64,000 nucleotides of DNA from a virus: IMG/VR virus record IMGVR_UViG_3300020048_000085; one strand, 5' to 3'. Made by a program: the position numbers and the translations under genes. How positions within the stretch are numbered: position 1 is the stretch's first letter; each line of letters begins with the position of its first letter. Shown one piece after another: positions 16,622-63,289 of this stretch. A model generated the notes under the pieces. That model searched no databases. It was not told the origin of the DNA and was given only the letters and a program-made list of their open reading frames with translations.

Positions 16622-16624
16622 AAG

Positions 16625-18436: not shown

Positions 18437-18442
18437 ATAATT

Positions 18443-18826
18443 TTATTTTTTTCTTAAATATGAAAAAACAACATCAAAAAATATTAGTTTAATACAAAAT
18501 GCTATTATAACCCATAAGAATGAAAAATTTAATACTATTATAATAGAAGCAATAATCATTAATAATTCAGATAAAAACCAAAATAAATGCCACGCATCAG
18601 TAAAAATAACAAATATAGTAGTACTACCTAAAAATTTTTCACCACTATGTGGATCATTATTTTTATATTTATTTAATGAACCTAATCCTTGCTCCCAAAA
18701 ATTTGGATTTAAATGATATTTCAAATATAATTTAGATTTATAAAATAAATTAGGAGATGATGATAAATCAGTAATTGATTTTGCAACTCCAGATAGGAAC
18801 AATAGTATTATAATTAATATTATCAT
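18443..18826 (-). CDS. Predicted small integral membrane protein (at least 3 hydrophobic helices)
   Basis: MIILIIILLFLSGVAKS... followed by a long hydrophobic C-terminal stretch. It is embedded in the paralog array. Confidence 0.4.
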   Translation of the reverse strand: MIILIIILLFLSGVAKSITDLSSSPNLFYKSKLYLKYHLNPNFWEQGLGSLNKYKNNDPHSGEKFLGSTTIFVIFTDAWHLFWFLSELLMIIASIIIVLNFSFLWVIIAFCIKLIFFDVVFSYLRKK

Positions 18827-18828
18827 AT

Positions 18829-19248
18829 TTATAAATTGAATTTTTTTGTTTCTTTATTTATATTTATTTCATCTATGATATCTTTAATATCATCAGGAAT
18901 AATACCATAAATATTCATTGGAGAATTTGTGTCTACATCATGTTTATATCTTATTCCTTTTAATTTTATTGTTAAAAAAATATAGTTAAATTCTTTATTA
19001 AAACCATAACCAAATCCCCTCACAACACCTTTATGTTGTTTATTTGAGTGCATGAAATAATTTAATCCTTTAATATCTTCTGTGCATTTTTTACATTCGA
19101 ATTTAATAACATTATTTTTAATTTCAAGTAATTTAAATATAAAATCACTTATAGATTCATTATCACCATTAAAATAACCAATAATATCATTTATTGTTAA
19201 TGTTACTTTATTTCCTGTATTTTCAAATAATTTGAATTGAGTTATCAT
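18829..19248 (-). CDS. FKxFE/KKFNL family paralog (MITQFKLFEN ... TKKFNL)
   Basis: Family motifs. The element ttatatatac lies immediately upstream of its ATG on the minus strand. Confidence 0.6.
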   Translation of the reverse strand: MITQFKLFENTGNKVTLTINDIIGYFNGDNESISDFIFKLLEIKNNVIKFECKKCTEDIKGLNYFMHSNKQHKGVVRGFGYGFNKEFNYIFLTIKLKGIRYKHDVDTNSPMNIYGIIPDDIKDIIDEININKETKKFNL

Positions 19249-19302: not shown

Positions 19303-20322
19303 TTAAAATAATTCCTTTAAAATATGTGTTCTTGATGCATAATTATATGCAACTTTTTCATTTTTTATAAAATCTTTTTTATTATTATATTTAGATGCGA
19401 CTTCTAAACATAATTCTTTATTCCAAAATAATCTACCATTTTTCATATGTGAACACACATCATCTATCCAATTACTTCTAGAACATCTTAAATATGATCC
19501 AGTTGAATTTTCATAAAAATCTTTTTTACAATTATATTTTAACGCTTCTTCTTTACATTTATTTTTTGTCCATTTTATAATACTACCACCTACACCTCCG
19601 CCTTTTATCTCATTTAATATATTATAATTGTTATTTCTATATTCTTCAATTTTCTCATCTTCCATTTTTTTAATAATATCAATATCTAAATAATCTGTCA
19701 ATTGTTTAAATATATAATTTACTTTTGTTTTGTGTTTATATTTGTATACTTGACTTTTTTTGTTGGTTTTGTGATAATAATTTCTAATATTTATATCATA
19801 TGTTAACCCTATATACACAGAATTATCATCAAATTCATAAATATATAAGCATCTTCTTTTTAAATTTCCACGATATATCATATGTTCACAAATTTCATCT
19901 ATCCATTTATTTTTGTGTGATATACTATATGCTGACATAGAATTAAATTTAAAATCGCTTTTATTATCATATTTTAATGCTTCTTCTTTACATCGTTCAA
20001 AATTCCAATAGTTTTTACATTTTTGATATTCTATCATATGCTCACAAATTTCATCCAACCAGTTATTTTTTCTTGAATATTCATAATATTTTTTGGAATT
20101 TTTTTGAAAATCAGTTCTTTTTGAATATTTATTTGCTTCATTTTTACACTCTATTTTAGAATATATTTTACAATTTTTATGCTTCATGTGTGAGCAAACA
20201 TCATCTAAAATATGATTGAAATATGCATAATTATATGCATAATTATCATTATTCATAAAATCTTGTTTAAATTTATATTTTAGTGCTATTTCTTGACATA
20301 ATTCTTTTGTGTATTTTATCAT
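19303..20322 (-). CDS. GIY-YIG endonuclease with tandem Cys/His-containing repeats of about 40 aa (W..E.C..HM / YxKCKE..LKY modules); the start is placed at the internal Met (MIKYTKELCQ), although the longest ORF extends to 20358
   Basis: GIY-YIG core YIYEFDDNSVYIGLTYDINIRNYYH, flanked by repeats such as KNKWIDEICEHM. The 20322 start is chosen because an RHH ORF occupies 20325..20498 in another frame, mirroring the paralogous cassette at 61809..63182. Confidence 0.55.
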   Translation of the reverse strand: MIKYTKELCQEIALKYKFKQDFMNNDNYAYNYAYFNHILDDVCSHMKHKNCKIYSKIECKNEANKYSKRTDFQKNSKKYYEYSRKNNWLDEICEHMIEYQKCKNYWNFERCKEEALKYDNKSDFKFNSMSAYSISHKNKWIDEICEHMIYRGNLKRRCLYIYEFDDNSVYIGLTYDINIRNYYHKTNKKSQVYKYKHKTKVNYIFKQLTDYLDIDIIKKMEDEKIEEYRNNNYNILNEIKGGGVGGSIIKWTKNKCKEEALKYNCKKDFYENSTGSYLRCSRSNWIDDVCSHMKNGRLFWNKELCLEVASKYNNKKDFIKNEKVAYNYASRTHILKELF

Positions 20323-20324
20323 AA

Positions 20325-20498
20325 TTATAATTTTATTTTTGATGTATTTATTCCACATTTATTAAAATAATCTAGCATTGCAAATTCTATATATTTTGAC
20401 TTGTTTGTAGTACTATCTAAAATCAAATCGTGTAATTCTGGAGACATAGAAATAGAAATTCTTATTTTTCTATCTTCTTCTTTTTTTAATGTTTTCAT
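20325..20498 (-). CDS. Small ribbon-helix-helix (CopG-like) protein immediately upstream of the GIY-YIG gene
   Basis: A 57-codon ORF (MKTLKKEEDRKIRISISMSPELHDLILDSTTNKSKYIEF...KIKL) with a beta-strand/helix-helix pattern. It is a paralog of the ORF at 63024..63182 and is too short for the ORF track. Confidence 0.35.
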   Translation of the reverse strand: MKTLKKEEDRKIRISISMSPELHDLILDSTTNKSKYIEFAMLDYFNKCGINTSKIKL

Positions 20499-20615
20499 AA
20501 TTTTCTTTTTATTGTATATATAAATATTTTAAAGTCAAAAGGTGTAATTATATAGTAATTTTAAAAATATTCAAACATTTTCTATAAAAAATTATATTAT
20601 ATAATAAATTATAAT

Positions 20616-20623
20616 TATCTTTG
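20616..20623 (+). promoter_or_regulatory. TATCTTTG promoter -7-like motif abutting the RHH gene start
   Basis: An exact copy of the recurring 9-mer TATCTTTGT. It matches the Bacteroidetes sigma-A -7 consensus TAnnTTTG. Confidence 0.35.
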
Positions 20624-20624
20624 T

Positions 20625-20789
20625 ATGAGGAATAGAATTAAAAATGAAGAAAAAAATGTTAAAGTTGGAATTACAATACATCCAGATTTATCTAAAATAT
20701 TAGATGAATATTCAAAAGAAAATAAAATAACCAAATCTAAAGTCATTCAAAATATTATGAATGAGCATTTTAAAAATAAAAATAAATAA
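20625..20789 (+). CDS. Small ribbon-helix-helix (CopG-like) protein, divergent from the minus-strand RHH and immediately upstream of sbcDC
   Basis: MRNRIKNEEKNVKVGITIHPDLSKILDEYSKENKITKSKVIQNIM... A paralog is at 63290..63481. It is under 60 aa and so absent from the track. Confidence 0.4.
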   Translation: MRNRIKNEEKNVKVGITIHPDLSKILDEYSKENKITKSKVIQNIMNEHFKNKNK

Positions 20790-20792
20790 ATA

Positions 20793-27555: not shown

Positions 27556-30095
27556 ATTATTCAAAAGATGTAGAATTTGCGATTAAAACAAGTAAGGATA
27601 TTGCTATTAAAATTGGCTCAAATACAATTAGACCTGAGCATATTTTTTTAGCTATGATTGAGGATGAATATTCTGACGCATGTCTTATTATGAAAGAGTT
27701 AAACTTAAATGTTGACGCAATCAAACAGACTATTTATCAGTGGTCTATGGTTGAACAATCAGGTAAAGGAATAAACAATCTTAGGAAAAATGCAGCAATT
27801 CCTCTTGATATGGAAACAGAGAAAATATTAAAAAGTTCTGTTGTTTTTGCCAAATCAATGGAATCAGATGACGTAGAGATTGATCATGTTTTTTATTCAA
27901 TTTTAGATAATGAAAACAATATAGTTAATTTATTATTAAATAAATCGCCTGGTATTTTAAATAGTTTAAAACGTAGATTGAAGAATGAAGATATTGATGA
28001 TTATACAAACAACTTAAATGAAGATAGTATGGAAGAAGGTATGGAAGAAGGAGAAGTAAAAACAGATTCAAAAAATAAATCAAAAACAAAATTACTTGAT
28101 CAATTTGGTACAAATTTAACAAACTTAGCAAAAGAAGGTAAGTTAGATCCAGTGGTTGGTCGTGTAAATGAGATTAAAAGAATCTCACAAATTTTATCCA
28201 GACGTAAGAAAAATAATCCTGTTTTGATTGGTGAGCCAGGTGTTGGTAAATCAGCTATTGCTGAAGGAATTGCTCAATTAATTGCAGATGGTAAAGTACC
28301 TGAAAATTTACAAAACAAGAGAATCATCACACTTGATATGGGTTCGTTAGTTGCGGGAACTAAATATAGAGGTGAGTTTGAGCAAAGAATGAAAGGTATT
28401 GTTAAAGAAATGGAAGAGAATAGTGATATTATTCTTTTCATTGATGAGATACATACTATTATTGGCGCTGGAGCATCACAAGGATCTCTAGATGCATCTA
28501 ATATGTTAAAACCAGCTTTGGGAAAAGGTACTTTTAGATGTATTGGTGCAACAACATTAGATGAATATCGTAAATATATTGAAAAGGACCCAGCATTAGA
28601 ACGTAGATTTCAAAAAGTTATAGTTGATTCTACTACAAAATCTGAAACATTAGAAATTCTTAAAAATATAAAAGCTCAATATGAGACTCATCATAAAGTT
28701 AAATATACTGATGACGCTTTAATCGCTTGTGTAGAATTATCAGATAAATACATATCAGACAAATTTTTACCTGATAAGGCAATTGATGCACTTGATGAAG
28801 CAGGTGCTATGGTTCATGTTAATAGAACAAGTGATATTCCAGATAAATTAGTAAATCTAAATAATAAAATCAAAGAATCTACTATTTTAAAATTAGATTG
28901 TGTAAAAAATCAAAAATTTGAATTGGCTGCTGAACACAGAGACAATGAGAAACAATGGAAATTAGAAGTTGATGAAATAAGAACAAATTGGAAGCAAGAA
29001 ATATCTAATACTATATCAACTGTAACTAAAGATGATGTGGCAGCAGTTATTTCACTTATGACAAAAATTCCAATTGATAGTGTATCTACAGATGAAAATG
29101 ATAAACTTATCGGTATGCCAGAAAAAGTTAAAAAACTTGTTATTGGTCAAGATGACGCAGTAGATAAAATTGTACAATCTGTTAAAAGATCAAGAATTGG
29201 ATTAAATAGCCATAATAAGCCAGTAGGTACATTTATTTTCTTAGGACCAACAGGAGTAGGTAAAACATACTTAGCAAAAATTATGGCAAAAGAATTATTT
29301 GGTTCCGAGGATTCATTAATTAGAATAGATATGAGTGAATTTATGGAGAAATTTTCTGTATCTCGTTTAGTTGGTGCACCTCCAGGATATGTTGGATATG
29401 AAGATGGTGGAAAATTAACAGAAGCAGTTAGACGCAAACCTTATTCAATTGTTCTTTTCGATGAAATGGAAAAAGCTCATTCAGATGTTCAAAATATTTT
29501 ACTTCAAGTATTAGATGATGGTTTTTTAACTGATAGTAATGGTCGCAAAGTTGATTTTAGAAATACTATTATTATTATGACATCAAATGCTGGTTCTAGA
29601 AAAGTAAAAGATTTTGGGAATGGTATTGGATTTGGTAGTATCTCTTCAAATAATCAAGAAAAGAGAAATGATGTTATAAAAAAAGAACTCGAAAAATTAT
29701 TTAGTCCAGAGTTTTTAAATAGAATTGATGAAATTGTAAATTTCAACTCTTTAAGTAAAGAAAATATCATTTCTATTATTGATGTAGAATGTAAATATTT
29801 GATTAATAATCTTAAAGAAAAAGGTTATGATGTCACAATATCAAACTCACTTAAAGATTACTTAGTTGAAAATGGATATGATGAAAATTATGGTGCAAGA
29901 CCACTCAAGAGAGCAATACAAAAACATATTGAAGATAGACTTATAGACGCTATCATAAGTAAAGAAATTGCTGTAGGTGATACAATATCATTATTATATG
30001 ATACTGAAAGTCAATCTGTTAAAATTTCAAAATTATCACCAAACTTTTTGGTTGATAATGTATTAAAATTAAATGAAAGTACTCCTGAAGTTTAA
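27552..30095 (+). CDS. clpC: ClpA/ClpC-type Hsp100 AAA+ unfoldase (Clp_N domain, two AAA modules, IGF ClpP-docking loop)
   Basis: Clp N-domain at the N-terminus. Walker A motifs GEPGVGKSAIAEG and LGPTGVGKTYLAK. A short UVR-like linker rather than a ClpB M-domain. SNAGSRKVKDFGNGIGFGS aligns with the ClpA IGL ClpP-binding loop, which is absent from ClpB. Confidence 0.85.
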   Translation: MNYSKDVEFAIKTSKDIAIKIGSNTIRPEHIFLAMIEDEYSDACLIMKELNLNVDAIKQTIYQWSMVEQSGKGINNLRKNAAIPLDMETEKILKSSVVFAKSMESDDVEIDHVFYSILDNENNIVNLLLNKSPGILNSLKRRLKNEDIDDYTNNLNEDSMEEGMEEGEVKTDSKNKSKTKLLDQFGTNLTNLAKEGKLDPVVGRVNEIKRISQILSRRKKNNPVLIGEPGVGKSAIAEGIAQLIADGKVPENLQNKRIITLDMGSLVAGTKYRGEFEQRMKGIVKEMEENSDIILFIDEIHTIIGAGASQGSLDASNMLKPALGKGTFRCIGATTLDEYRKYIEKDPALERRFQKVIVDSTTKSETLEILKNIKAQYETHHKVKYTDDALIACVELSDKYISDKFLPDKAIDALDEAGAMVHVNRTSDIPDKLVNLNNKIKESTILKLDCVKNQKFELAAEHRDNEKQWKLEVDEIRTNWKQEISNTISTVTKDDVAAVISLMTKIPIDSVSTDENDKLIGMPEKVKKLVIGQDDAVDKIVQSVKRSRIGLNSHNKPVGTFIFLGPTGVGKTYLAKIMAKELFGSEDSLIRIDMSEFMEKFSVSRLVGAPPGYVGYEDGGKLTEAVRRKPYSIVLFDEMEKAHSDVQNILLQVLDDGFLTDSNGRKVDFRNTIIIMTSNAGSRKVKDFGNGIGFGSISSNNQEKRNDVIKKELEKLFSPEFLNRIDEIVNFNSLSKENIISIIDVECKYLINNLKEKGYDVTISNSLKDYLVENGYDENYGARPLKRAIQKHIEDRLIDAIISKEIAVGDTISLLYDTESQSVKISKLSPNFLVDNVLKLNESTPEV

Positions 30096-40024: not shown

Positions 40025-40300
40025 ATGAAAAATTCTTTCCTAAAAATGAGAATAGATGATGATGAATATCAAAAATTTCAAGAATCATGTGAAAATAAAG
40101 GCAAAACTATGAGCGAAGTTATGAGAGCCTTTATTAACTCATATAATAACGGTAAAAATATAATTCTATTAGATATTGATAATGACACATTTGATCAAAG
40201 TCTAAACTTATGTAAAGAGAAAAAAATTAAACTTAATGATGTTGTGAAATATTTATTGCACAAAGCAATTAAAAATAAAGACAAATTAAATTTTAAATAA
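40025..40300 (+). CDS. Small RHH/CopG-like DNA-binding protein candidate
   Basis: LKMRIDDDEYQKFQESCENKGKTMSEVMRAFINSY is a strand-helix-helix pattern, with a second similar segment downstream. Confidence 0.35.
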   Translation: MKNSFLKMRIDDDEYQKFQESCENKGKTMSEVMRAFINSYNNGKNIILLDIDNDTFDQSLNLCKEKKIKLNDVVKYLLHKAIKNKDKLNFK

Positions 40301-40350
40301 AAACAAATAGTGTCTCTATTTAATTAATAATAGTTATAATAAAAAATAAG

Positions 40351-40385
40351 TCTTGAATAATTTTGTTTGTTCAAGATTTTTTTTT
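40351..40385 (+). terminator. Intrinsic terminator hairpin plus T9, forming part of a repeated terminator-promoter cassette
   Basis: tcttgaataa - ttttgt - ttgttcaaga (one G-U pair) followed by TTTTTTTTT. It is nearly identical to the cassette at 59838. Confidence 0.6.
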
Positions 40386-40392
40386 ATCTTTG
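40385..40392 (+). promoter_or_regulatory. TATCTTTG -7-like promoter element with TTTG 19 nt upstream
   Basis: A copy of the recurring 9-mer TATCTTTGT, about 33 nt upstream of the ATG at 40426. Confidence 0.4.
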
Positions 40393-40425
40393 TATTTCAA
40401 TTTAAAATTAAAAAAATGGAACACA

Positions 40426-41630
40426 AATTTGAAGATTACAATAAAAAAGAACAAAGAGATATAATTTTTGAAATTATCAGACAAAAATATATAAATGATC
40501 CAGATATGAATGGATTTGGTAAAAACACAAAATATATGATTAAAGTCTTAAAAGATTTTGAATCTGATAATATATCACAAGAATCAGCAAAACAAAAAAT
40601 AGTAGATTTTTATGATTATTTTAATACAGAAATAGCATCAGAAGTATTATTTTATTTCTATCATATTGCAGAAGGAGTAGCAGAAGATTCAACTGGAATA
40701 AAATCTGAAAAGTATAGAAAAGTATGTGAAATAATAAGTAATATTATCAATATTGATGATTTGAAAAAAAGAGTACAACCACCAGAAGACAAACTCACAA
40801 ATACAGACAAATCAAATGGTGGATTTGTAGTACAAACTTACAGTAGATATCCAGATCCAAAATCATATGTAGCTCCAACTAAACCTCCAAAAGTACACAA
40901 TTTTCCTAATCCATATATCAATAAAGATTTCAAATCAATTTGTGATTATGTAAGATATAAATTTTTCGAATTAATGGAAGAATCACACATTGAAAATTTT
41001 CAAAATTTAGATGCTGAAATAAGTGTTTCATATTTAGTACCAGATTCAGATGAATTTATTAATTTTCCTCAAGTTGAATATGATGGAGAAGAAGAAGACT
41101 TAGATTTTGAAAATACAGGAGATTTTATTATAAATGATGAAAATAGTATTACCTTTGGTGGTGGTGGAGATTGGCAAGAACCAAAAACATTTAGTTTTAA
41201 ACTTGAAAAGAATGGAAAGGTAAAAGCATTTGATATAGTTGATGATTACGATGATAGTAATTGGACAAGTAATCCTGAAATGATATTGAAAGTAATTTGT
41301 AAATTATTTGGACTTAATATTAAAAATTATAATCCAGACAGTGTAAATCCTGATGATGTAAAACTATTATATGATGATATGGTTGCAAATAAAGATTATA
41401 AGTTGACTGTACCATCAAATATTACAACTGATGATTGTGTTAAAGCAATATGTAAATACTTTAGAAAAAATGATAAATATCTTGATGATATGACAGAACC
41501 AAAAAATTGGAAAAGATTATCAAAAAAAGGTACACACATATGTATTAGAATATTCGAAAATAAAGTAACAAAAAGTCAAGTCAAAGTTACTTCAACTAAC
41601 ACAAAAATTATAAAGGTAGAACAAATTTAA
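40426..41630 (+). CDS. Hypothetical protein (about 400 aa); the start is at MEHKFEDY rather than the upstream extension at 40353
   Basis: The longest ORF (from 40353) runs through the terminator hairpin and promoter motif. The first ATG after the promoter is at 40426. Confidence 0.5.
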
Positions 41631-41672
41631 TTTTATTAACATAATATAATTTGGATATTCAAATAATTAAAT

Positions 41673-41680
41673 TATCTTTG
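41673..41680 (+). promoter_or_regulatory. TATCTTTG -7-like promoter element upstream of nfeD-flotillin
   Basis: TATCTTTGT lies 35 nt upstream of the ATG at 41715. Confidence 0.35.
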
Positions 41681-41714
41681 TTAAGTATTTAATAATAATT
41701 TAAAAATAAAAAGT

Positions 41715-42281
41715 ATGATAGAATTTTTTAACTCTCTAGATATGTTTAGTAAAACATTATTTTTTATGGCTTTTGGAACAGGTGTATTATTTATTATCCA
41801 AAATTTAATTGTGTTTTTAGGAATGGATCATGATAGTGATATTGATACTGATTCAGATATTGATTCAGAACACAACTCTGGTAAATCATTTGGTTGGTTT
41901 TCATTTAAAAACGTTGTTAATTTTATTCTAATTTTTTCATTAGTAGGATTAATAACAGTAGGTTCTGGAATATCAAAACCAGTATCATTATTAATAGCAT
42001 CAATAGCAGGTATTATATTTGTTTATGTGATGATATTATTATTCAATCTAATGAAAAAACTCTCTCAAGATAATACACCAACATTAACTGATTTAGTTGG
42101 AGAAACTGGTGTAGTATATTTAAAAATACCTGCAGTAGGAAATGGAAAAATAAAAATAATGCATGGCGGAGCAATTCAAATATTAGATGCGTGTTCAGAA
42201 GGTATAGTAATCACAAGAGATTCAAATGTTAAGGTGTCTAAAATTGTAGGACATACTATAATAGTAGAAGAAATAAAATAA
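41715..42281 (+). CDS. NfeD-like membrane protein (short form, YuaF/YqiJ-like) partnered with flotillin
   Basis: N-terminal transmembrane helices plus a C-terminal beta-rich OB-like segment (GVVYLKIPAVGNGKIKIMHGGAIQILDA). It sits immediately upstream of an SPFH protein, as in bacterial nfeD-floT operons. Confidence 0.55.
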   Translation: MIEFFNSLDMFSKTLFFMAFGTGVLFIIQNLIVFLGMDHDSDIDTDSDIDSEHNSGKSFGWFSFKNVVNFILIFSLVGLITVGSGISKPVSLLIASIAGIIFVYVMILLFNLMKKLSQDNTPTLTDLVGETGVVYLKIPAVGNGKIKIMHGGAIQILDACSEGIVITRDSNVKVSKIVGHTIIVEEIK

Positions 42282-42328
42282 TCAATAAAAATAATTTATA
42301 AATAAAAACAATTTAATTTAAAAAAAAC

Positions 42329-43831
42329 ATGAGTAGTACATTAACGTTAATTTTAATCGTAGTAGTTGCGATTTCAGTATTTTCAATTATTGTTGCCTTA
42401 GTAAAAAGGTACAAACGTTGCCCATCAGATAAACTTTTAGTTATTTATGGTAAAACAGGCAAAACTGATGGTAAAGCATCAGCAGCAAAAGTAATTCATG
42501 GTGGTGGTGCATTTGTTTGGCCAGTCATTCAGGATTATACTTTCTTAGATTTGAAACCAATTTCAATTGATATTAATTTGAAAGGTGCATTATCTAAACA
42601 AAACATACGTATTGATGTTCCATCAGTATTTACAGTTGCAATATCAGGTGGAGATGGAATACGTGAGAATGCTGCTGAGAAATTACTTGGACTTCAAAAA
42701 CAAGAAATAGCACAATTAGCACAAGATATTATTCTTGGTCAAATGCGTTTAGTTATCGCAATGATGAACATTGAAGAAATAAATGCTGACCGTGACAAAT
42801 TTCTTGAAAATATTCAAAAAAATCTTGAAGATGAGCTTCAAAAAATTGGTCTAAGACTTATTAATGTAAATATCACAGATATTAGTGATGAATCAAACTA
42901 CATTAAATCATTAGGACAGAATGCAGCATCAGGAGCTATTAATGAAGCTGCAATTCAAGTTGCACAGAAGAATAAAGATGGTGCTATTGGTGTTGCAACA
43001 GCAGATAGAGAAAAACGTGTGAGTGTTGCTGCTGCGCAAGCAGAAGCACAAATTGGTGAAGCTGATGCAAGTCAAAAAATGAGAGCAGAAACTGCTGCAT
43101 TAAATGCAAAGGCTATTGCTGGTGAAAATAGTGCATTTGTTGAAATAGCAAAAACTAATGCTAGTAGACAAATTGCAGAAGCTGATGCAAAGAAAGACTC
43201 AGTTACTGCTGAAAATGTAAAAGCAGCAGAAGCAAAACAAGCATCATATGATGCTGAAAAATTAGCAGAAACAAAACGTGCTGAAAGAGATAAAGCAACT
43301 CAATATGCAAATATTGTTGTACCTGCTGAAATAGCAAAAGAAAAACTTATTGTTGAAGCTGCTGCAAATGCAGAATCAACTAGAGTAATTGCAAAAGGTG
43401 ATGCTGATGCAATGTTTGCTAAAATGGAAGCAGAAGCAAGAGGTATAAATGAAATACTAACAAAGCAAGCTGAAGGTTTTGCAAAGTTAGTTCAAGCTGC
43501 TGGTGGAGATGCTGCAAAAGCTGTTCAATTGATGATTGCTGATAAATTACCAGAACTTACAAGAATTCAAGTTGATGCTATCAAAAATATCAAATTTGAT
43601 AAGATTACAGTTTGGGATAATGGTGGAAATGGCTCAGGAAATTCTACTGCAAATTTTGCAAAAAATTTATTTTCAATGATTCCACCACTTACTGACATTT
43701 TCAAACAAGTTGGTGCTGAATTACCAGCATTTATGCAAGGTGCAGGAGAACAAAAAACAAATGAACTTGAAGCAGAAAACTCTGTCACTAAAGTAATAAA
43801 AGACGAAACAACTGATAATAGTAAATCATAA
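42329..43831 (+). CDS. Flotillin-like SPFH/band-7 protein (FloT/YqiK type) with Ala/Glu-rich coiled-coil repeats
   Basis: N-terminal TM anchor and an SPFH core (VIHGGGAFVWPVIQDYTFLDLKP...). There is a long EA-repeat region (AAQAEAQIGEADASQKMRAETAALNAKA...). GC is visibly higher than in the surrounding sequence. Confidence 0.75.
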   Translation: MSSTLTLILIVVVAISVFSIIVALVKRYKRCPSDKLLVIYGKTGKTDGKASAAKVIHGGGAFVWPVIQDYTFLDLKPISIDINLKGALSKQNIRIDVPSVFTVAISGGDGIRENAAEKLLGLQKQEIAQLAQDIILGQMRLVIAMMNIEEINADRDKFLENIQKNLEDELQKIGLRLINVNITDISDESNYIKSLGQNAASGAINEAAIQVAQKNKDGAIGVATADREKRVSVAAAQAEAQIGEADASQKMRAETAALNAKAIAGENSAFVEIAKTNASRQIAEADAKKDSVTAENVKAAEAKQASYDAEKLAETKRAERDKATQYANIVVPAEIAKEKLIVEAAANAESTRVIAKGDADAMFAKMEAEARGINEILTKQAEGFAKLVQAAGGDAAKAVQLMIADKLPELTRIQVDAIKNIKFDKITVWDNGGNGSGNSTANFAKNLFSMIPPLTDIFKQVGAELPAFMQGAGEQKTNELEAENSVTKVIKDETTDNSKS

Positions 43832-43839
43832 AATTAAAT

Positions 43840-43870
43840 AAAAAGTCCTGTTTTTTGCAGGACTTTTTAT
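43840..43870. terminator. Bidirectional intrinsic terminator after the flotillin gene
   Basis: Stem aaagtcctg / caggacttt with a T-rich loop and a T-run. Confidence 0.6.
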
Positions 43871-44079
43871 GTTGTTATAATAAAATTTGCCAATTCTTTA
43901 CAATCAGATTCAATATAATCAATATAATTTACTTTTATTTGATCACCAACTGGGAAATTCATTAAATTATCAAATAGTATAACATAAGAACTATCTTCTT
44001 CTATATTATTGTTTAATAACATAATATATAAACCTTTATTTGATGTACTATTTATGTGCTTATAAATTGTTCCTTGCAT
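43867..44079 (-). CDS. Hypothetical small protein (70 aa)
   Basis: ORF only. Confidence 0.35.
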   Translation of the reverse strand: MQGTIYKHINSTSNKGLYIMLLNNNIEEDSSYVILFDNLMNFPVGDQIKVNYIDYIESDCKELANFIITT

Positions 44080-44102
44080 AATTAATTTTTTAACTATATA
44101 TT

Positions 44103-44135
44103 AAAAAAAAATCCTGCTTTCGCAGGATTTTTTTA
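44103..44135. terminator. Intrinsic terminator (A-run, stem atcctgc / gcaggat, T-run)
   Basis: Perfect 7-bp GC-containing stem with tetraloop tttc, flanked by an A8 run and a T7 run. Confidence 0.6.
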
Positions 44136-44339
44136 TACCCATTCCTCTTCTTCGAGATATTCTGGATTATATATTAAACCAAGTTCATTAATTTTTTTAT
44201 AAATATCATTTTTGTTTCTTGTTTCGAAAAGTTCATTCATAGTCTCTAATTCACATTCAATGTTTTTTAGTAATAAAACATCTTTTGTTTCTGCATCCCA
44301 AATCAATTTCCATACACTACCATTTTCAAGTTTTTTCAT
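44133..44339 (-). CDS. Hypothetical small acidic protein (68 aa)
   Basis: ORF only. Confidence 0.35.
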   Translation of the reverse strand: MKKLENGSVWKLIWDAETKDVLLLKNIECELETMNELFETRNKNDIYKKINELGLIYNPEYLEEEEWV

Positions 44340-44483
44340 AAAAAATTATTTTTTTTTTGTAAATGTTGTTGAAAAATTCAACTTTTTTGTTTTTATTTTA
44401 TACTACATTTTATAGTATTTCAACTCAAGTATATATTAATATTAATAAATTCAAAAAAAGTCAATCATACTAATATATTGATA

Positions 44484-51780: not shown

Positions 51781-51831
51781 ATATTATTAATTTTTATTAC
51801 TACTATATATTATTATTTCAAATCTTTTTTG

Positions 51832-51839
51832 TATCTTTG
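51832..51839 (+). promoter_or_regulatory. TATCTTTG -7-like promoter element heading the long plus-strand gene run 51868-61787
   Basis: TATCTTTGT lies 28 nt upstream of the ATG at 51868. Confidence 0.35.
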
Positions 51840-58988: not shown

Positions 58989-59816
58989 TTGATGCTAATA
59001 AATTTAACTTATAATATGAATAAAAAAATTAAAAATTGGATTTCTTTCATTTTAGAACAACAAAATAATAGTATTAATTTTTCAATATTTGATTGGGATG
59101 ATAATATTTTAATTATGAACACACCTTTGCATTTACAACATTTTGAAAATGGTAGATGGATAAATAAAGATGTATCAATTCAAGAGTTTTCCAATATTCG
59201 TTTAAAATATCCAGATAATTATGTTGATAATTCAGAATGGAAAGCTGATAAAAATTCTTTCATTGAGTTTACTGATTGTGGAACAAGAGTAGAAAATGTT
59301 TTTTTAGATGATGTAAAGGTTGCAATAAAAAATAAAGAATTTGGTCCATCTTGGACAGAATTTATTGACACTTTAAAAAATGGTAACTTATTTGCAATAA
59401 TAACAATTAGAGGACATGAATCAAATTCAATAAGAAAAGCAATTAGACATATTATTGACTATGTTTTAGAACCTAATATAAAAGAACAATTAATTGAAAA
59501 TATTCAAAGATATAATAATCTATTTAAAAACAAATCAATTGATTTAATTGAACAATATTTAGATTGTTGTTATTTTATCGGATTGATGTCACAAGAATTT
59601 AAAGATGAATATAGTTATTCTCCTGTTGGAAATAAACTAAATGAAGGTAGACAAGACGCAATTAATAAATTTAGTAACTATGTTAAATCTATTTATCCAA
59701 ATGCTACAAAAGAAGTATTTGTGAACATGGAGAAATCATTGAATTTTCCTGAAATACAATACACTAGAAGTACTTCTGATAATAAGATTCCTATCGGAGT
59801 AAGAGTAAAAATATAA
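58989..59816 (+). CDS. Hypothetical protein (275 aa), weak HAD-phosphatase-like N-terminal motif
   Basis: SIFDWDDNIL resembles HAD motif I (hhhDxDx[TV]L), but with N in place of T/V. A later IITIRGHE segment follows. The assignment is weak. Confidence 0.35.
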   Translation: MMLINLTYNMNKKIKNWISFILEQQNNSINFSIFDWDDNILIMNTPLHLQHFENGRWINKDVSIQEFSNIRLKYPDNYVDNSEWKADKNSFIEFTDCGTRVENVFLDDVKVAIKNKEFGPSWTEFIDTLKNGNLFAIITIRGHESNSIRKAIRHIIDYVLEPNIKEQLIENIQRYNNLFKNKSIDLIEQYLDCCYFIGLMSQEFKDEYSYSPVGNKLNEGRQDAINKFSNYVKSIYPNATKEVFVNMEKSLNFPEIQYTRSTSDNKIPIGVRVKI

Positions 59817-59837
59817 AAATATAATTTTAAAAATATA

Positions 59838-59872
59838 TCTTGAATAATTTGGTTTATTCAAGATTTTTTTTT
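59838..59872 (+). terminator. Intrinsic terminator hairpin plus T9; the second copy of the terminator-promoter cassette
   Basis: tcttgaataa - tttggt - ttattcaaga is a perfect 10-bp stem, followed by TTTTTTTTT. Confidence 0.65.
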
Positions 59873-59879
59873 ATCTTTG
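59872..59879 (+). promoter_or_regulatory. TATCTTTG -7-like promoter element with TTTG 20 nt upstream, driving ligA
   Basis: TATCTTTGT lies about 40 nt upstream of the ATG at 59916. It is embedded in the repeated cassette. Confidence 0.4.
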
Positions 59880-59915
59880 TTTTTCAAAATATAAACAATA
59901 AAAATAATAATTATT

Positions 59916-61787
59916 ATGAGTGTGTCAGAAATATATAAATTACTAGAAAACGATTTGTTTTCAGAAGCTTCTATTGAAATTAAGAAACTAAATCAGAAAT
60001 ATCGTGATGGTGATCCTCAAATTAGTGATATAGATTATGATAAATTGATTGAATTGTTTCAAAGATTAGATCCAGATAATGAATTTTTTAAATCATCTGT
60101 TGTTGATGATGTTAATCCTGATAGAAAAGAAGCTTTGAAATTTCCAATGTTCTCTTTGGATAAATATCATTCTATTGAAGATATTCATAAGTGGTTAAAT
60201 AATAAAGGAATATCACTAGATGTAGAATTAGTTTGTACATCAAAGTATGATGGTATATCTATTCTTAAAGATGAATTTAATCAACTTGCATGGTCAAGAG
60301 GTGATGGTTTAGTAGGTGAGACTATGCATGAACATTGTAAAAAATTAAAATCTGATAATAAGAAAATCGATTTATTTACTATTGGAGAGATGCTTTTTTC
60401 AAAACCTTTTTTTAATAGTAAAATATTTTATAGAGATAATGGTGAACCATTTAAAAATGCTCGTAATATGATTGCAGGACTTAAAAATTCTGATACAGTA
60501 TCAGAATATTTAGTTGATGCTAAACATATTCGTTATGGATATGCTAATGAAGATTTTTCATTGAATAAATCTGAACAATTAGATTTTATTAATGAAAATT
60601 TCTCTACTGTACCATACAAAATAATTAAAGCAAAAGAATTGAATATTGATATGTTAAATGAGCTTTTTGTTAAGTGGGGCGAAGAGTATGATATTGATGG
60701 ATTAGTCTTTGATATTGATGATAAAAATATCAGAAAAAATCTAGGTCGTGAAAGGAACAACAATCCAGCATATGCCAGAGCGTTTAAAAATCCTCAATGG
60801 TCAGAAGCAAAAGAAACTATAATTCTTGATATAGAATGGAATATCAGTAAGAACGGATTACTTAAGCCAGTTGGAATATTACAACCTATTGATTTAGAAG
60901 GTGTTATAGTTTCAAGGGTGACATTGAACAATGCGAAGTTCGTCAAGGACTTCTGCATTGGAAAGAACACAATTTTGAAAATTTTGAGATCTGGTTTTGT
61001 CATACCAAAAGTGCAGAGTATTATAAAATCTACTGGATATGTTGAACCTGTTGTTGGAAACTCAAAAGTTTTCTGGAACGAAAATGGTGTAGAATTGATG
61101 GTTGAAGGTACGGAAGAACAGGAAATCAAAAAACTCATTTCTTTTTTTGAAATTCTTGGTGCAGAAAACGTGTCAGAAGGTATTATTAATCAATTGTATA
61201 ATTCTGGTTATAAAACTATTAAACAAATTTTAGATTTGACAACTGATGATTTAGAAAAACTTGAACGCTTTGGTGAACGGAAATCACAAATCGTTTTTCA
61301 ATCCATACATAATGCGGTTACAGACTTAAAATTATCTAAACTTATGCATGCAACAAATATTTTTAAAAATCTAGGATCGAAGAAACTTGATTTGTTGATG
61401 CATTTTGAAGGTAAACCAACATTTGAAGAAATACTTAAAGTCGATGGGTTTTCTGATATCTCAGCAAAAGCATATCTTGATGGATATGATGAATTTTATA
61501 ATTGGTTAAGTGATATGACAAAAATAACTATAGAAACTAAAAAAGAAAAAAACATTATGGAAAAAAATGATTTAGAAGGAACAGTATGGGTGTTTACTGG
61601 AATTCGATTAAAAACTGCTGAAGAATTGTTAATTGATAGAGGTGCAAAAATTACAACCTCTGTAAGTAAGAATACCACTCACTTGGTGTGTAAAGATCCA
61701 AATAGCGGATCAAGTAAATTGCTGAAAGCTATTGAGTTAGGTGTAGAAATTATGAGTGTAGAAGACTTTGAAGATTTTTTAAGTTGA
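59916..61787 (+). CDS. ligA: NAD-dependent DNA ligase (LigA type) with a C-terminal BRCT domain; no tetracysteine zinc-finger module is visible
   Basis: N-terminal Ia-like helical domain. Adenylation motif I TSKYDGISI (KxDG). OB and HhH regions. A C-terminal BRCT (WVFTGIRLKTAEELLIDRGAKITTSVSKNTTHLV). No Cys4 cluster lies between the OB and HhH regions. Confidence 0.88.
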   Translation: MSVSEIYKLLENDLFSEASIEIKKLNQKYRDGDPQISDIDYDKLIELFQRLDPDNEFFKSSVVDDVNPDRKEALKFPMFSLDKYHSIEDIHKWLNNKGISLDVELVCTSKYDGISILKDEFNQLAWSRGDGLVGETMHEHCKKLKSDNKKIDLFTIGEMLFSKPFFNSKIFYRDNGEPFKNARNMIAGLKNSDTVSEYLVDAKHIRYGYANEDFSLNKSEQLDFINENFSTVPYKIIKAKELNIDMLNELFVKWGEEYDIDGLVFDIDDKNIRKNLGRERNNNPAYARAFKNPQWSEAKETIILDIEWNISKNGLLKPVGILQPIDLEGVIVSRVTLNNAKFVKDFCIGKNTILKILRSGFVIPKVQSIIKSTGYVEPVVGNSKVFWNENGVELMVEGTEEQEIKKLISFFEILGAENVSEGIINQLYNSGYKTIKQILDLTTDDLEKLERFGERKSQIVFQSIHNAVTDLKLSKLMHATNIFKNLGSKKLDLLMHFEGKPTFEEILKVDGFSDISAKAYLDGYDEFYNWLSDMTKITIETKKEKNIMEKNDLEGTVWVFTGIRLKTAEELLIDRGAKITTSVSKNTTHLVCKDPNSGSSKLLKAIELGVEIMSVEDFEDFLS

Positions 61788-61794
61788 TGAATTA

Positions 61795-61828
61795 AAAAAC
61801 GTGGTGTATTATGCACCACGTTTTTTAT
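61795..61828. terminator. Bidirectional intrinsic terminator between ligA and the convergent GIY-YIG gene
   Basis: Stem aacgtggtg / caccacgtt followed by T6. Confidence 0.6.
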
Positions 61829-63182: not shown

Positions 63183-63289
63183 TACCTTTTTTATTGTATA
63201 TATAAATATATAAAAGTTATAAAGTGATTTTTTGGTGATTTTTTATAAACTTTTTTAAAATAAATTTATAATATAAATAAAAATATTAT

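What the first reader, a model, noticed from the sequence alone, without database searches (positions are those of the whole stretch)
40351..40392. Near-identical 50-nt terminator-promoter cassette present twice (40351 and 59838)
tcttgaataatttNgtttNttcaagaTTTTTTTTTATCTTTGTNtttcaa occurs upstream of the gene at 40426 and upstream of ligA. It consists of a 10-bp-stem hairpin, a T9 run whose last T begins TATCTTTG, and a TTTG 19-20 nt upstream of that motif. The TTTG lies inside the hairpin arm, so terminator folding and -33 recognition would be mutually exclusive. This is a compact unit that ends one transcript and starts the next, duplicated almost verbatim 19 kb apart.
Basis: seen in the sequence. 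Interest (0 to 1): 0.6.

Follow-up and report, generated by a model that had tools for sequence, protein, structure and literature searches.

The report
Repeated terminator–promoter cassette in huge phage
A 50-base unit that most likely stops one transcript and starts the next occurs twice in this very AT-rich giant-phage genome; it is real and conserved in related phages, but it is the same kind of composite "terminator plus promoter" cassette already described in T4-like phages.

Summary
Positions 40351-40400 and 59838-59887 are 47/50 identical, and a structure model finds exactly these two copies in 64 kb. Each copy holds a 10-13 bp hairpin, a T9 run, TATCTTTG (the Bacteroidota -7 box TAnnTTTG) and a TTTG 19-20 nt upstream. 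The window looks like an AT-rich (22% GC) huge phage related to 'Mahaphages'. The copy upstream of ligA is old. Nine IMG/VR contigs, with ligases only 59-70% identical to the window's (one of them a partial match), keep the same hairpin, T-run and -7 box behind a co-directional gene. Two closer relatives have a divergent gene upstream, and there both the 5' arm and the T-run have decayed while the promoter half remains. Orthologues of the 404-aa gene carry weaker, shifted or unrelated hairpins plus T-runs before the same promoter. This supports an intrinsic terminator fused to a host-type promoter. The TTTG lies in the loop, not the arm. RNA hairpin folding does not compete with -33 recognition on duplex DNA. 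The near-identity is best explained by sequence exchange between two old cassettes, plus double constraint on the 3' arm. The closest known kind is the PeSL cassettes of T4-type phages. It is a new member of a known kind, of modest interest.

The parts
40348..40379 (+). Copy A hairpin. Core stem is 40351-40360 paired with 40367-40376, with loop 40361-40366 (TTTTGT). The extended stem as aligned by the covariance model runs 40348-40379.
   Evidence: Sequence. RNAfold gives -12.8 kcal/mol, z -7.1. The covariance model scores 50.0 bits on the + strand against 24.3 on the - strand. Two G.U pairs exist only in the + strand RNA.
40377..40385 (+). Copy A T9 run, the putative terminator U-tract. Its last T is the first base of the -7 box.
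   Evidence: Sequence. It is the longest T-run among the 37 hairpin-plus-T-run sites in the window.
40362..40365 (+). Copy A TTTG, the candidate -33 element, located in the hairpin loop 19 nt upstream of TATCTTTG.
   Evidence: The motif definition is from PMC7366714.
40370..40374 (+). Copy A TTCAA, exactly 10 nt before the -7 box. It is part of the 3' arm and is shared with promoters that lack a hairpin.
   Evidence: TTCAA-N9-11-TAnnTTTG has 4 hits in the window, all intergenic and all N10. The same arrangement occurs in relatives.
40385..40400 (+). Copy A -7 box TATCTTTG (40385-40392) plus the conserved TATTTCAA, the presumed start-site region. The ATG of the 404-aa gene is at 40416.
   Evidence: TATCTTTGTATTTCAA is identical in the orthologous locus L192.
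59835..59866 (+). Copy B hairpin. Core stem is 59838-59847 paired with 59854-59863, with loop 59848-59853 (TTTGGT).
   Evidence: Sequence. RNAfold gives -11.0 kcal/mol, z -5.0. The covariance model scores 50.5 bits.
59864..59872 (+). Copy B T9 run, the putative U-tract.
59848..59851 (+). Copy B TTTG, the candidate -33 element, in the loop 20 nt upstream of the -7 box.
59872..59887 (+). Copy B -7 box TATCTTTG (59872-59879) plus TTTTTCAA. The ligA ATG is at 59916.
   Evidence: NAD-dependent DNA ligase domains. A homologous cassette lies upstream of ligA in 9 IMG/VR contigs.
40025..40300 (+). Co-directional gene whose transcript copy A would terminate: an Arc/RelB-like ribbon-helix-helix protein. 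Its stop codon lies 50 nt before the hairpin.
   Evidence: Pfam RelB at 1.4e-6. PHROG Arc-like repressor at 2e-5.
58989..59816 (+). Co-directional 275-aa gene of unknown function whose transcript copy B would terminate. Its stop codon lies 21 nt before the hairpin.
   Evidence: ORF list. A homologue occupies the same position in 9 relatives.
40416..41630 (+). The 404-aa gene driven by copy A. It has no family match and is conserved in huge phages.
59916..61787 (+). The NAD-dependent DNA ligase gene driven by copy B.
41650..41680 (+). Promoter of the same family without a hairpin (TTTGGATATTCAAATAATTAAATTATCTTTG), upstream of the NfeD-like/SPFH gene pair.
51817..51839 (+). Promoter of the same family without a hairpin (TTCAAATCTTTTTTGTATCTTTG).

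Best explanation
Each copy is a composite regulatory cassette: an intrinsic (Rho-independent) terminator fused to a Bacteroidota-type housekeeping-sigma promoter. The genome looks like an AT-rich huge phage that probably infects a member of the Bacteroidota.

Proposed mechanism. RNA polymerase coming from the co-directional upstream gene (the RHH gene at copy A, the 275-aa gene at copy B) transcribes the 10-13 bp hairpin and the U9 tract and is released. A new transcript for the 404-aa gene or for ligA then starts a few bases downstream of TATCTTTG. The terminator is built out of the promoter's own upstream half: the loop carries the -33 TTTG, the 3' arm carries the TTCAA(G) spacer element, and the U-tract is the T-rich spacer running into the -7 box.

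Why the copies are so alike. The 3' arm is constrained twice, as promoter spacer and as stem, and the 5' arm must complement it. That leaves the stem little room to drift. The remaining near-identity of the two copies reflects sequence exchange (gene conversion) between two old cassettes within this phage lineage.

Shown: the sequence anatomy, the folding, the conservation and the pattern of loss. Inferred: the actual RNA 3' and 5' ends, host sigma use, the host phylum and the gene-conversion history.
For: Terminator.
- Hairpin stability: -11 to -12.8 kcal/mol, z -5 to -7, followed by T9.
- The genome uses this style widely: 37 hairpin-plus-T-run sites, 21 of them in the 12.5% of the window that is non-coding (binomial P about 2e-10). 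The standard scan finds 12 terminators in 36-48 kb against 1.2 expected.
- Conservation: nine IMG/VR contigs (four sequence variants) have ATATCTTGAATAA-TTTTT-TTATTCAAGATAT, then T6-8 and ATCTTTG, between a co-directional homologue of the 275-aa gene and ligA. These hairpins fold at -13.4 to -17.6 kcal/mol, z -6.5 to -9.
- Degree of divergence: their ligases are only 67-80% identical to each other and to the window's, with four-fold third positions 53-64% identical, yet the 60-nt cassettes are 84-98% identical.
- Loss pattern: in L187 and L188 (ligases 76% and 72% identical) the upstream gene is divergent. There the 5' arm and the T-run have both decayed (-3.3 and -0.7 kcal/mol, not significant), while TTATTCAAGAT...TATCTTTG persists.
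- Alternative solutions before the same promoter: orthologues of the 404-aa gene that have a co-directional upstream gene carry a weaker homologous hairpin (L192: -7.5, z -2.4), a shifted hairpin with T6 (L197: -6.7, z -3.1), or an unrelated GC-rich terminator (L200/L201).
- Strand: every variable stem position stays paired in + strand RNA (97.4% of cells, one AU-to-UA swap, two G.U changes). The model scores 50 bits on + against 24-33 on -.

Promoter.
- TATCTTTG fits the TAnnTTTG -7 consensus, with TTTG near -33, of Bacteroidetes sigma-A (PMC7366714).
- 7 of 14 TATCTTTG sites are intergenic (P = 7e-4), all on the + strand before + strand genes; six of the seven have a start codon close downstream (the 47596 site has no clear ORF downstream).
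- Related promoters occur in relatives.
- The closest ligase hits are 634-642 kb uncultured phages. Al-Shayeb et al. report that all their phages above 634 kb fall in the Mahaphage clade and were predicted to infect Bacteroidetes (PMC7162821).

Exchange between the copies.
- A and B are 90% identical. A is 84-85% identical to ligA-type cassettes of other phages but only 79% identical to its own orthologue in L192. A's flanks (AAGT upstream, TATCTTTGTATTTCAA downstream) still match L192.
- B alone among ligA cassettes has the N10 spacing and a 6-nt G-containing loop, as A does.
Against: - No transcript ends were mapped. The host is unknown and uncultured, so both activities are inferred.
- The stem has only 2 G-C pairs of 10 and fails the generic terminator scan, which asks for at least 3.
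- Across divergent phages the stem hardly varies. There are only 3 distinct hairpin sequences, so covariation is not statistically informative (338 of 500 shuffles reach the observed value). Such strict sequence conservation is more than an ordinary terminator needs, and could point to a protein-binding site.
- One family promoter (41673) follows a co-directional gene without any hairpin.
- The -33 TTTG is absent from the relatives' cassettes.
- Support for TTCAA as a promoter element is modest: 3 independent sites in the window against about 1 expected by my estimate.
- The gene-conversion argument rests on a few characters in 60 nt.
Confidence: 0.7

Rival explanations
1. The inverted repeat TCTTGAATAA-N6-TT(A/G)TTCAAGA is mainly a DNA operator. 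A dimeric phage regulator, for example one of the ribbon-helix-helix proteins encoded in the window such as the Arc/RelB-like gene just upstream of copy A, would bind it and control the overlapping promoter. The two genes would share one regulator, which would explain the identical sequence.
For: - The palindrome overlaps the -33 and spacer region of the promoter.
- Both arms are invariant across phages whose synonymous sites are near saturation. That is more sequence conservation than pairing alone requires.
- An Arc/RelB-like gene sits directly upstream of copy A and is conserved next to the cassette in L192.
Against: - The T-run is conserved together with the hairpin and is lost together with it in L187 and L188. 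An operator has no need for a T-run.
- Copy A breaks the DNA symmetry at two positions that remain G.U pairs in + strand RNA.
- The distance between TTGAA and TTCAA varies between homologues: 11 nt in the ligA-type cassettes of relatives, 12 nt in the window and 13 nt in L192.
- Orthologues replace the palindrome with shifted or unrelated hairpins.
- No further copy lies near any RHH gene, as autoregulation would predict.
- The half-site centres are about 16-17 bp apart, roughly 1.5 helical turns.
Confidence: 0.12
2. The cassette is primarily a recombination linker or mobile regulatory module in the PeSL sense. Conserved about-50-nt cassettes would serve as homology patches that move promoter-gene-terminator modules within and between co-infecting phages. 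The identity of the copies would be maintained by that traffic rather than by regulatory constraint.
For: - PeSLs are composite terminator/promoter cassettes shown to recombine and to flank indels (PMC2839356, PMC4122927).
- The paralogues within this genome are more alike than A is to its orthologue.
- L192 differs from the window by an extra 152-aa ORF immediately upstream of the cassette. It also lacks the NfeD/SPFH module downstream of the 404-aa gene.
- L187 and L188 have a rearrangement that ends at the ligA cassette.
- L192 repeats its own arm sequences 1.46 kb apart.
Against: - There are only two copies in 64 kb and one per 33-235 kb contig in relatives, compared with about 50 per T4-type genome.
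- The copies precede conserved genes (ligA and a conserved 404-aa gene), not ORFans.
- The 19.5 kb between them holds about 30 genes, not a single-gene cassette.
- The ligA cassette has stayed at one locus over long divergence.
- The indels near the cassettes are anecdotal.
Confidence: 0.2
3. The two copies are similar only because of convergence and low-complexity AT-rich sequence. They would be independent terminators and promoters that happen to look alike, or a neutral duplication remnant with no function.
For: - The genome is 22% GC, so T-runs and A/T-rich hairpins are common.
- Several positions are fixed by motif requirements (TTTG, TTCAA, T-run, TAnnTTTG).
Against: - 0 matches occur in 100 shuffles, and the next best model hit is 33 bits lower.
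- No other terminator stem in the window is repeated in this way.
- The cassette is conserved at 84-98% across phages whose synonymous sites are 53-64% identical, which a neutral remnant would not be.
Confidence: 0.03

Closest known systems
PeSL (promoter-early stem-loop) cassettes of T4-type phages (Arbiol et al. 2010, PMC2839356; Comeau et al. 2014, PMC4122927)
   Same: Both are small intergenic composite units of a host-type promoter plus a stem-loop that terminates upstream transcription. In PeSLs the stem-loop may overlap the -35 box or lie between the two promoter boxes, as it does here. Both are repeated within a large phage genome with conserved sequence, and both lie next to differences in gene content between relatives.
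   Different: - PeSLs use sigma-70 -35/-10 boxes and a Shine-Dalgarno site, with stems that are often G-tract/C-tract. This cassette has a Bacteroidota -7/-33 promoter, no Shine-Dalgarno site and an A/T-rich stem.
- PeSLs number about 50 per genome and sit mostly before ORFans in hyperplastic regions. Here there are 2 copies in 64 kb and one per relative contig, before conserved genes.
- Recombination and mini-circles were shown for PeSLs and are untested here.
- There is no sequence homology between the two.
Intrinsic (Rho-independent) terminators, including bidirectional ones flanked by A-tract and T-tract
   Same: The cassette has a stem-loop of 10-13 bp with a 5-6 nt loop, immediately followed by T8-T9. 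An A-rich stretch lies upstream, and the site is just after a co-directional gene.
   Different: The stem has only 2 G-C pairs. The U-tract doubles as promoter spacer and runs into the -7 box. The stem sequence is conserved rather than covarying.
Bacteroidetes sigma-A (sigma-ABfr) promoters: TAnnTTTG at -7 and TTTG near -33 (Bayley et al. 2000 and later work, as summarised in PMC7366714)
   Same: Both copies have TATCTTTG at the right distance from a start codon and TTTG 19-20 nt upstream. There is no Shine-Dalgarno site and the leader is A-rich.
   Different: The relatives' cassettes lack the -33 TTTG. A TTCAA lies 10-11 nt before the box and recurs in this phage group. I do not know of that element being described for host promoters.
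Phage 'morons' (a promoter-gene-terminator unit inserted between conserved genes)
   Same: The NfeD/SPFH pair (41715-43831) has its own family promoter at 41673 and a terminator at 43838-43870. It is absent between the 404-aa gene and thymidine kinase in L192.
   Different: A moron is a gene insertion, not a repeated regulatory sequence. It describes the neighbourhood of the cassette, not the cassette itself.

Membership tests
Intrinsic terminator | A stable RNA stem-loop that forms in the transcript of the upstream gene | tested here: met
   The hairpins fold at -12.8 and -11.0 kcal/mol, z -7.1 and -5.0. Those of relatives fold at -13.4 to -17.6. G.U pairs form on the + strand only, and the model scores 50 bits on + against 24-33 on -.
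Intrinsic terminator | A U-tract immediately 3' of the stem | tested here: met
   T9 follows the stem in both copies, and T6-T8 in relatives. The T-run is interrupted in the two lineages that lost the hairpin.
Intrinsic terminator | A G+C-rich stem | tested here: not met
   Only 2 of the 10 core pairs are G-C. The generic scan, which requires at least 3 G-C pairs, does not list the site. The genome is 22% GC.
Intrinsic terminator | RNA 3' ends map to the U-tract, and read-through is reduced | not testable with these tools
   This needs Term-seq, 3' RACE or a reporter assay.
Bacteroidota sigma-A promoter | A TAnnTTTG -7 box, intergenic and oriented toward a nearby start codon | tested here: met
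   TATCTTTG ends 23 nt before the ATG in copy A and 36 nt before it in copy B. 7 of 14 TATCTTTG sites are intergenic (P = 7e-4), and all seven face a + strand gene.
Bacteroidota sigma-A promoter | A TTTG near -33 | tested here: inconclusive
   It is present 19 and 20 nt upstream in the two window copies. It is absent from the homologous cassettes of nine relatives, whose loop is TTTTT.
Bacteroidota sigma-A promoter | Transcription starts a few nt downstream of the box, driven by host RNA polymerase with sigma-A | not testable with these tools
   This needs dRNA-seq, 5' RACE or in vitro transcription. The host is unknown.
PeSL (T4-type mobile regulatory cassette) | A promoter and a terminator stem-loop combined in one short conserved intergenic motif | tested here: met
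   The definition is from PMC2839356.
PeSL (T4-type mobile regulatory cassette) | A sigma-70-like -35/-10 promoter with an upstream AT-rich region and a Shine-Dalgarno site | tested here: not met
   The promoter half is TTTG/TAnnTTTG, and no Shine-Dalgarno site precedes either ATG.
PeSL (T4-type mobile regulatory cassette) | Dozens of copies per genome, concentrated in hyperplastic regions before ORFans | tested here: not met
   The window's 64 kb holds two copies, and each 33-235 kb relative contig holds one. Both copies precede conserved genes. The rest of the source genome could not be retrieved.
PeSL (T4-type mobile regulatory cassette) | Indels or replacements between close relatives bounded by the cassettes | tested here: inconclusive
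   L192 has an extra ORF directly upstream of the cassette and lacks the NfeD/SPFH module. L187 and L188 are rearranged up to the ligA cassette. There are too few genomes, and those available are too fragmentary.
PeSL (T4-type mobile regulatory cassette) | Recombination between copies yields mini-circles | not testable with these tools
   This needs inverse PCR on infected cells or virions.
Repressor operator (palindromic) | A symmetric DNA half-site pair at fixed spacing, also present at the regulator's own promoter | tested here: not met
   Copy A is asymmetric at two stem positions. The TTGAA-to-TTCAA spacing is 11, 12 or 13 nt in different homologues. No further copy exists in the window.
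MITE / transposon end / attachment site | Terminal inverted repeats with target-site duplication, or identical core flanked by integrase-linked junctions | tested here: not met
   Similarity ends within about 60 nt, the flanks are unrelated and there is no duplicated target. The only inverted repeat is the hairpin itself. The cassette is syntenic in relatives.

The most novel reading that the evidence does not exclude
The cassette may be more than a terminator abutting a promoter. The invariant 26-31 bp palindrome could be read in a sequence-specific way, either by a phage protein (a regulator or a recombination factor) or as a device that hands terminating RNA polymerase directly to the promoter that begins inside the U-tract. 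It would then couple or co-regulate a small set of early DNA-metabolism genes and act as a preferred exchange point between co-infecting huge phages. That would make it a Bacteroidota-phage counterpart of PeSLs with an added sequence-specific layer.
Probability: 0.15. Interest if true: 0.55.

Novelty: new member of a known kind. Interest (0 to 1): 0.3.

Why it matters
Almost nothing is known experimentally about transcription signals in the uncultured huge phages of Bacteroidota.

- The cassette and its relatives give a concrete, testable promoter consensus, TTTG(G)-N3-4-(A)TTCAA-N10-11-TATCTTTGT, and a terminator style for this group.
- They show a host-type promoter class existing alongside a second, probably phage-specific, TATATATA class.
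- They show how a terminator can be assembled on top of a promoter's own upstream half.
- Practically, the cassette is a compact insulating part (terminator plus promoter in about 50 nt) that could be tried in Bacteroides or Flavobacterium genetics.
- It does not reveal a new mechanism. Composite terminator/promoter cassettes are established in T4-type phages.

Tried and rejected
- **IMG/VR scans with T9-specific patterns** (whole cassette and TTCAAGA-T9-ATCTTTG) found nothing. The relatives read GATAT-T8, and a looser pattern then found them.
Apart from L003, a 3.8 kb ENA contig of the same phage that was already held, none of the loci held carries the whole cassette. Most hits were unrelated, and many were ordinary TTTG...TATCTTTG promoters of Bacteroidales.
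- **The rest of the source genome could not be recovered.** Exact-protein look-ups returned only 3-4 kb ENA contigs or nothing. An 83 kb JGI contig is listed for the 404-aa protein but was not retrievable.
- **No tRNA, tmRNA or Rfam family** lies anywhere in the window.
- **MITE, transposon end or att site** was rejected: there are no target duplications, the flanks are unrelated, and the position is syntenic in relatives.
- **Possible third copies** (window 44369-44390, GTTGAA-AAA-TTCAAC plus T6; L192 2157) do not fold better than shuffles (z -0.5 and -1.2). The model does not detect the one at 44369, so they are not counted.
- **TTGAA-N3-14-TTCAA** is over-represented against a mononucleotide shuffle (19 against 4.5). 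Most sites are coding and the control is weak, so this was not used.
- **The similar layout in Prevotella phage Lak-A1** (E = 3e-3) is treated as an analogue, not a homologue.
- **Covariation statistics** are uninformative because there are only three distinct hairpin sequences.
- **PHROGs and Pfam** gave no function for the 404-aa or the 275-aa protein.
Full report
**1. The observation**

The two stretches are exactly as described.

Over 50 nt the copies differ at three positions, so 47/50 are identical. A pairwise alignment shows the similarity collapsing to AT-rich background outside roughly 40342-40401 and 59829-59888.

Each copy has four parts:
- a 10-bp core stem (TCTTGAATAA paired with TTGTTCAAGA in A and TTATTCAAGA in B);
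- a 6-nt loop;
- a T9 run;
- TATCTTTG, which begins with the last T of the run.

The G/A difference in the 3' arm turns a U.G pair into U-A.

RNAfold gives -12.8 and -11.0 kcal/mol (z -7.1 and -5.0), and no shuffle out of 200 folds as well. A covariance model of the hairpin, run over the whole window with filters off, scores 50.5 and 50.0 bits at these two sites and no more than 17.6 bits elsewhere. There are therefore exactly two copies in these 64 kb.

Two details need correcting:
- The gene after copy A starts at ATG 40416, not 40426.
- The TTTG that lies 19 nt (A: 40362-40365) or 20 nt (B: 59848-59851) before the box is in the loop, not in an arm.

**2. The genome**

The window is 20-31% GC, about 22% overall. 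It is densely packed with short ORFs and has no tRNA or Rfam match.

Recognisable genes:
- ClpB-like ATPase;
- a nuclease/ATPase fusion of the SbcCD type;
- NusG;
- an S1-domain protein;
- an M16 peptidase;
- an SPFH/NfeD pair;
- a GIY-YIG protein;
- thymidine kinase;
- an NAD-dependent DNA ligase.

The ligase's best hits among deposited phages are two uncultured phages of 634 and 642 kb, at 43% identity. Al-Shayeb et al. report that all their phages above 634 kb fall in the Mahaphage clade and were predicted to infect Bacteroidetes (PMC7162821). Homologues of the 404-aa protein lie on phage-like contigs encoding IF3, SmpB and a tRNA synthetase.

I therefore treat the window as part of a huge phage with a probable Bacteroidota host. 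The host assignment is an inference.

**3. The promoter half**

TAnnTTTG at -7 and TTTG near -33 define the promoters of the Bacteroidetes primary sigma factor (PMC7366714).

TATCTTTG occurs 14 times in the window. Seven are in the 12.5% of the sequence that is non-coding (binomial P = 7e-4). All seven are on the + strand in front of + strand genes. Six of the seven have a start codon close downstream; the box at 47596 has no clear downstream ORF.

Four of them (40385, 41673, 51832, 59872) also have TTCAA exactly 10 nt before the box. These are the only four matches to TTCAA-N9-11-TAnnTTTG in the window. Four have TTTG 19-20 nt upstream.

The same arrangement, T-rich - TTCAA - N10/11 - TATCTTTGTAT, precedes other genes in related phages, including one of the 642 kb genomes.

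So the 3' arm of the hairpin (…TTCAAGA) coincides with a recurrent spacer element of a promoter family whose other members have no hairpin. This element is an observation with modest statistical weight, not an established motif.

**4. The terminator half**

The window uses hairpin-plus-T-run sites heavily.
- The standard scan finds 12 in 36-48 kb against 1.2 expected.
- My own scan (hairpin of -6 kcal/mol or better directly before at least five T) finds 37, of which 21 are intergenic (P about 2e-10).

The two cassette hairpins (-9.4 kcal/mol for the core stem, with the longest T-runs in the list) sit in the middle of that population. They escape the standard scan only because they have two G-C pairs. 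Both follow a co-directional gene, by 50 nt at copy A and 21 nt at copy B.

**5. Relatives: the decisive evidence**

*The ligA locus.* A degenerate scan of IMG/VR found nine contigs of 33-235 kb and 22-25% GC, in four sequence variants. In each, ATATCTTGAATAA-TTTTT-TTATTCAAGATAT, followed by T6-8 and ATCTTTGTA, lies between a co-directional homologue of the 275-aa gene and ligA.

| Comparison | Value |
|---|---|
| Hairpin stability in these relatives | -13.4 to -17.6 kcal/mol, z -6.5 to -9 |
| Ligase amino-acid identity, to the window and to each other | 67-80% |
| Four-fold third codon positions identical | 53-64%, near saturation for this composition |
| Identity of the 60-nt cassettes | 84-98% |

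The cassette is therefore under strong purifying selection.

*Loss where the upstream gene is divergent.* Two phages whose ligases are among the closest to the window's (L187 and L188, 76% and 72% identical) have a divergently transcribed gene upstream of ligA. In both:
- the 5' arm has decayed (-3.3 and -0.7 kcal/mol, not different from shuffles);
- the T-run is interrupted;
- TTATTCAAGAT…TATCTTTG (L187) or a close variant (L188) remains.

The hairpin and the U-tract are kept together where upstream transcription arrives and lost together where it does not. That is what a terminator predicts and what an operator does not.

*The 404-aa gene locus.*
- The closest orthologue (L192, 79% identical) has a homologous but weaker hairpin plus T7 before an identical TATCTTTGTATTTCAA.
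- A 56% orthologue (L197) has the same promoter with a shifted hairpin, ATAATTTG paired with CAAGTTAT, plus T6 (-6.7 kcal/mol, z -3.1).
- A 52% orthologue (L200/L201) has an unrelated GC-rich terminator followed by TACCTTTG.
- Two others sit inside operons with neither element.

Different structural solutions at the same place again point to selection for an RNA hairpin.

*Strand.* All variable stem positions remain paired in + strand RNA: one AU-to-UA swap and two G.U changes, 97.4% of cells paired. With only three distinct sequences this has no statistical force.

**6. Why the two copies are nearly identical**

Both loci have homologous cassettes in other phages, so this is not a fresh duplication to a new site.

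Copy A is 90% identical to copy B and 84-85% identical to the ligA-type cassettes of other phages. It is only 79% identical to its own orthologue in L192. Its immediate flanks (AAGT upstream, TATTTCAA downstream) still match L192.

Conversely, copy B is the only ligA cassette with N10 spacing and a 6-nt G-containing loop, which are the states of copy A. Every other ligA cassette has N11 and a TTTTT loop.

This mosaic is most simply explained by sequence exchange (gene conversion) between the two cassettes in this lineage.

It is helped by a double constraint. The 3' arm serves as both promoter spacer and stem, so the 5' arm can only be its complement. That also explains why the stem does not covary.

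The argument rests on few characters, and I hold it at about even odds against parallel selection.

**7.

The best-supported reading is an intrinsic terminator fused to a host-type promoter. It insulates the 404-aa gene and ligA from the genes upstream of them.

The claim that hairpin folding and -33 recognition are mutually exclusive does not follow. The hairpin forms in RNA made from upstream, and sigma reads duplex DNA. At most there is transient promoter occlusion by elongating polymerase, which the terminator would relieve.

The -33 TTTG is also dispensable in evolution, since the relatives have a TTTTT loop. [quoted passage not shown]

**8. Comparison with known systems**

The closest known kind is the PeSL of T4-type phages. 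These are small conserved intergenic cassettes made of a strong host-type promoter and a stem-loop terminator. The stem-loop lies upstream of, overlaps, or sits between the promoter boxes. PeSLs are shown experimentally to terminate and to promote, and are implicated in modular shuffling and mini-circle formation (PMC2839356 and PMC4122927).

The present cassette works like a PeSL but is not a member in the strict sense:
- the promoter type differs;
- there is no Shine-Dalgarno site;
- the copy number is two in 64 kb, and one per contig in relatives;
- it precedes conserved genes rather than ORFans.

Gene-content differences next to the cassettes are suggestive of exchange at these points but anecdotal:
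- an extra ORF lies upstream of the cassette in L192;
- the NfeD/SPFH module is absent from L192;
- L187 and L188 are rearranged upstream of the ligA cassette.

**9. Rivals**

*Palindromic operator.* This idea is attractive for two reasons. An Arc/RelB-like gene sits just upstream of copy A, and the arms are invariant. It is weakened by five points:
- the T-run is conserved and lost together with the hairpin;
- copy A is asymmetric in DNA in ways that remain G.U pairs in RNA;
- the half-site spacing varies between homologues;
- orthologues substitute other hairpins;
- no further copy exists in the window.

It could still be an additional layer.

*Chance or neutral remnant.* This is excluded by the conservation data.

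**10. Verdict**

The 'mutually exclusive' refinement and the arm placement of TTTG are wrong. It is a new member of a known kind, the composite terminator/promoter cassette. It is useful as a first look at transcription signals in Bacteroidota huge phages, but not surprising mechanistically. Interest 0.3.

Noticed in passing
window, e.g. 5852, 11361, 20515, 31351, 39844, 49372, 50637, 58840, 63197; L187 900-1020 and L188 800-940: A second intergenic motif, TATATATA(A/G)A. All 15 occurrences are intergenic, as are 38 of 42 plain TATATATA. It often faces genes on both sides of divergent intergenic regions. In L187 and L188 it occurs in 3-4 tandem repeats of about 30 nt upstream of ligA. It is probably a distinct, phage-specific promoter class alongside the host-type TATCTTTG class.
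   Followed up: partly
window 20616-20790; 40025-40300; about 63300-63480; repeats 20506-20567 / 63188-63249: There are several small ribbon-helix-helix (Arc/CopG/RelB-like) genes. One appears to start at ATG 20625, only 1 nt after the TATCTTTG box at 20616, which suggests a leaderless mRNA. I read that ATG by eye from the sequence context printed. Its upstream region is repeated at 74% identity before another RHH-like ORF near 63.2-63.5 kb. In the 642 kb relative, the ligA ATG likewise lies 4 nt after TATATTTG.
   Followed up: partly
window 41631-44140 compared with L192 1998-2300: The NfeD-like/SPFH pair (41715-43831) has its own family promoter (41673) and terminator (43838-43870). It is present between the 404-aa gene and thymidine kinase in the window and absent in the 79% relative L192. 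Two terminators with the same TCCTG…CAGGA stem (43845-43868 and 44112-44134) bracket the following short minus-strand ORFs. L192 has a single orthologous one, TCCTGCAAATGCAGGA. This looks like a moron-type insertion.
   Followed up: partly
L192 695-735 and 2157-2195: The relative L192 repeats its own version of the arms (AAGTTGAATAATAT … TTTCAATATTTTTT) 1.46 kb apart, flanking the 404-aa gene. The second copy is followed by GATATATAAAG instead of TATCTTTG. The second copy does not fold significantly as that hairpin.
   Followed up: partly
window 61809-63017 and 19303-20358: A GIY-YIG-domain ORF lies on the minus strand directly after ligA. It contains, and is followed by, four tandem 153-nt repeats (62421-63017). 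These are related to repeats inside the 351-aa ORF at 19303-20358 (families D1, D3 and D4).
   Followed up: no
window 13701-15765 (+) and 16301-19248 (-): Two arrays of small paralogous genes have conserved junctions. One junction is …AAATTTAATTTATGAAACA with overlapping stop and start (D2, D11). The other is TTTTCAAATATTTTAAATTGTGTTATCAT (D6, D12).
   Followed up: no
window 28001-30000, 42001-44000, 60001-62000: There are local GC maxima of 0.29-0.32 against a background of about 0.22. They coincide with the conserved cellular-type genes ClpB, SPFH and ligase.
   Followed up: no
L002 1500-1554 (Prevotella phage Lak-A1, MK250015.1 308912-308965): Lak-A1 has a similar layout: AAAAAAGTCTTTGAATAA-TTTTT-TTATTTAAAGA, an 11-bp hairpin with one G.U pair (-12.8 kcal/mol for the segment, z -3.6), followed 8 nt later by TATCTTTGTAT. 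There is no T-run. It is probably analogous rather than homologous.
   Followed up: partly
L237 (IMGVR_UViG_3300038345_000251, 392 kb), minus strand about 3934-3990: This huge-phage contig has the same 9-nt arms (CTTGAATAA…TTATTCAAG), then T8 and TATATTTG, before a small gene. The 5' arm contains the stop codon of the upstream co-directional gene (…KELE*). This may be coincidence or a distant relative of the cassette.
   Followed up: partly
loci L004-L186 (metagenome and GTDB hits): Many Bacteroidales/Prevotella genomes carry TTTG-N4-5-TTCAAGA-T6-7-(C/T)G-TATCTTTG(C/T)A promoters, with TTCAA most often 10 nt before the box. The search pattern itself required TTCAAGA, so whether TTCAA is a real host promoter element was not tested.
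   Followed up: no
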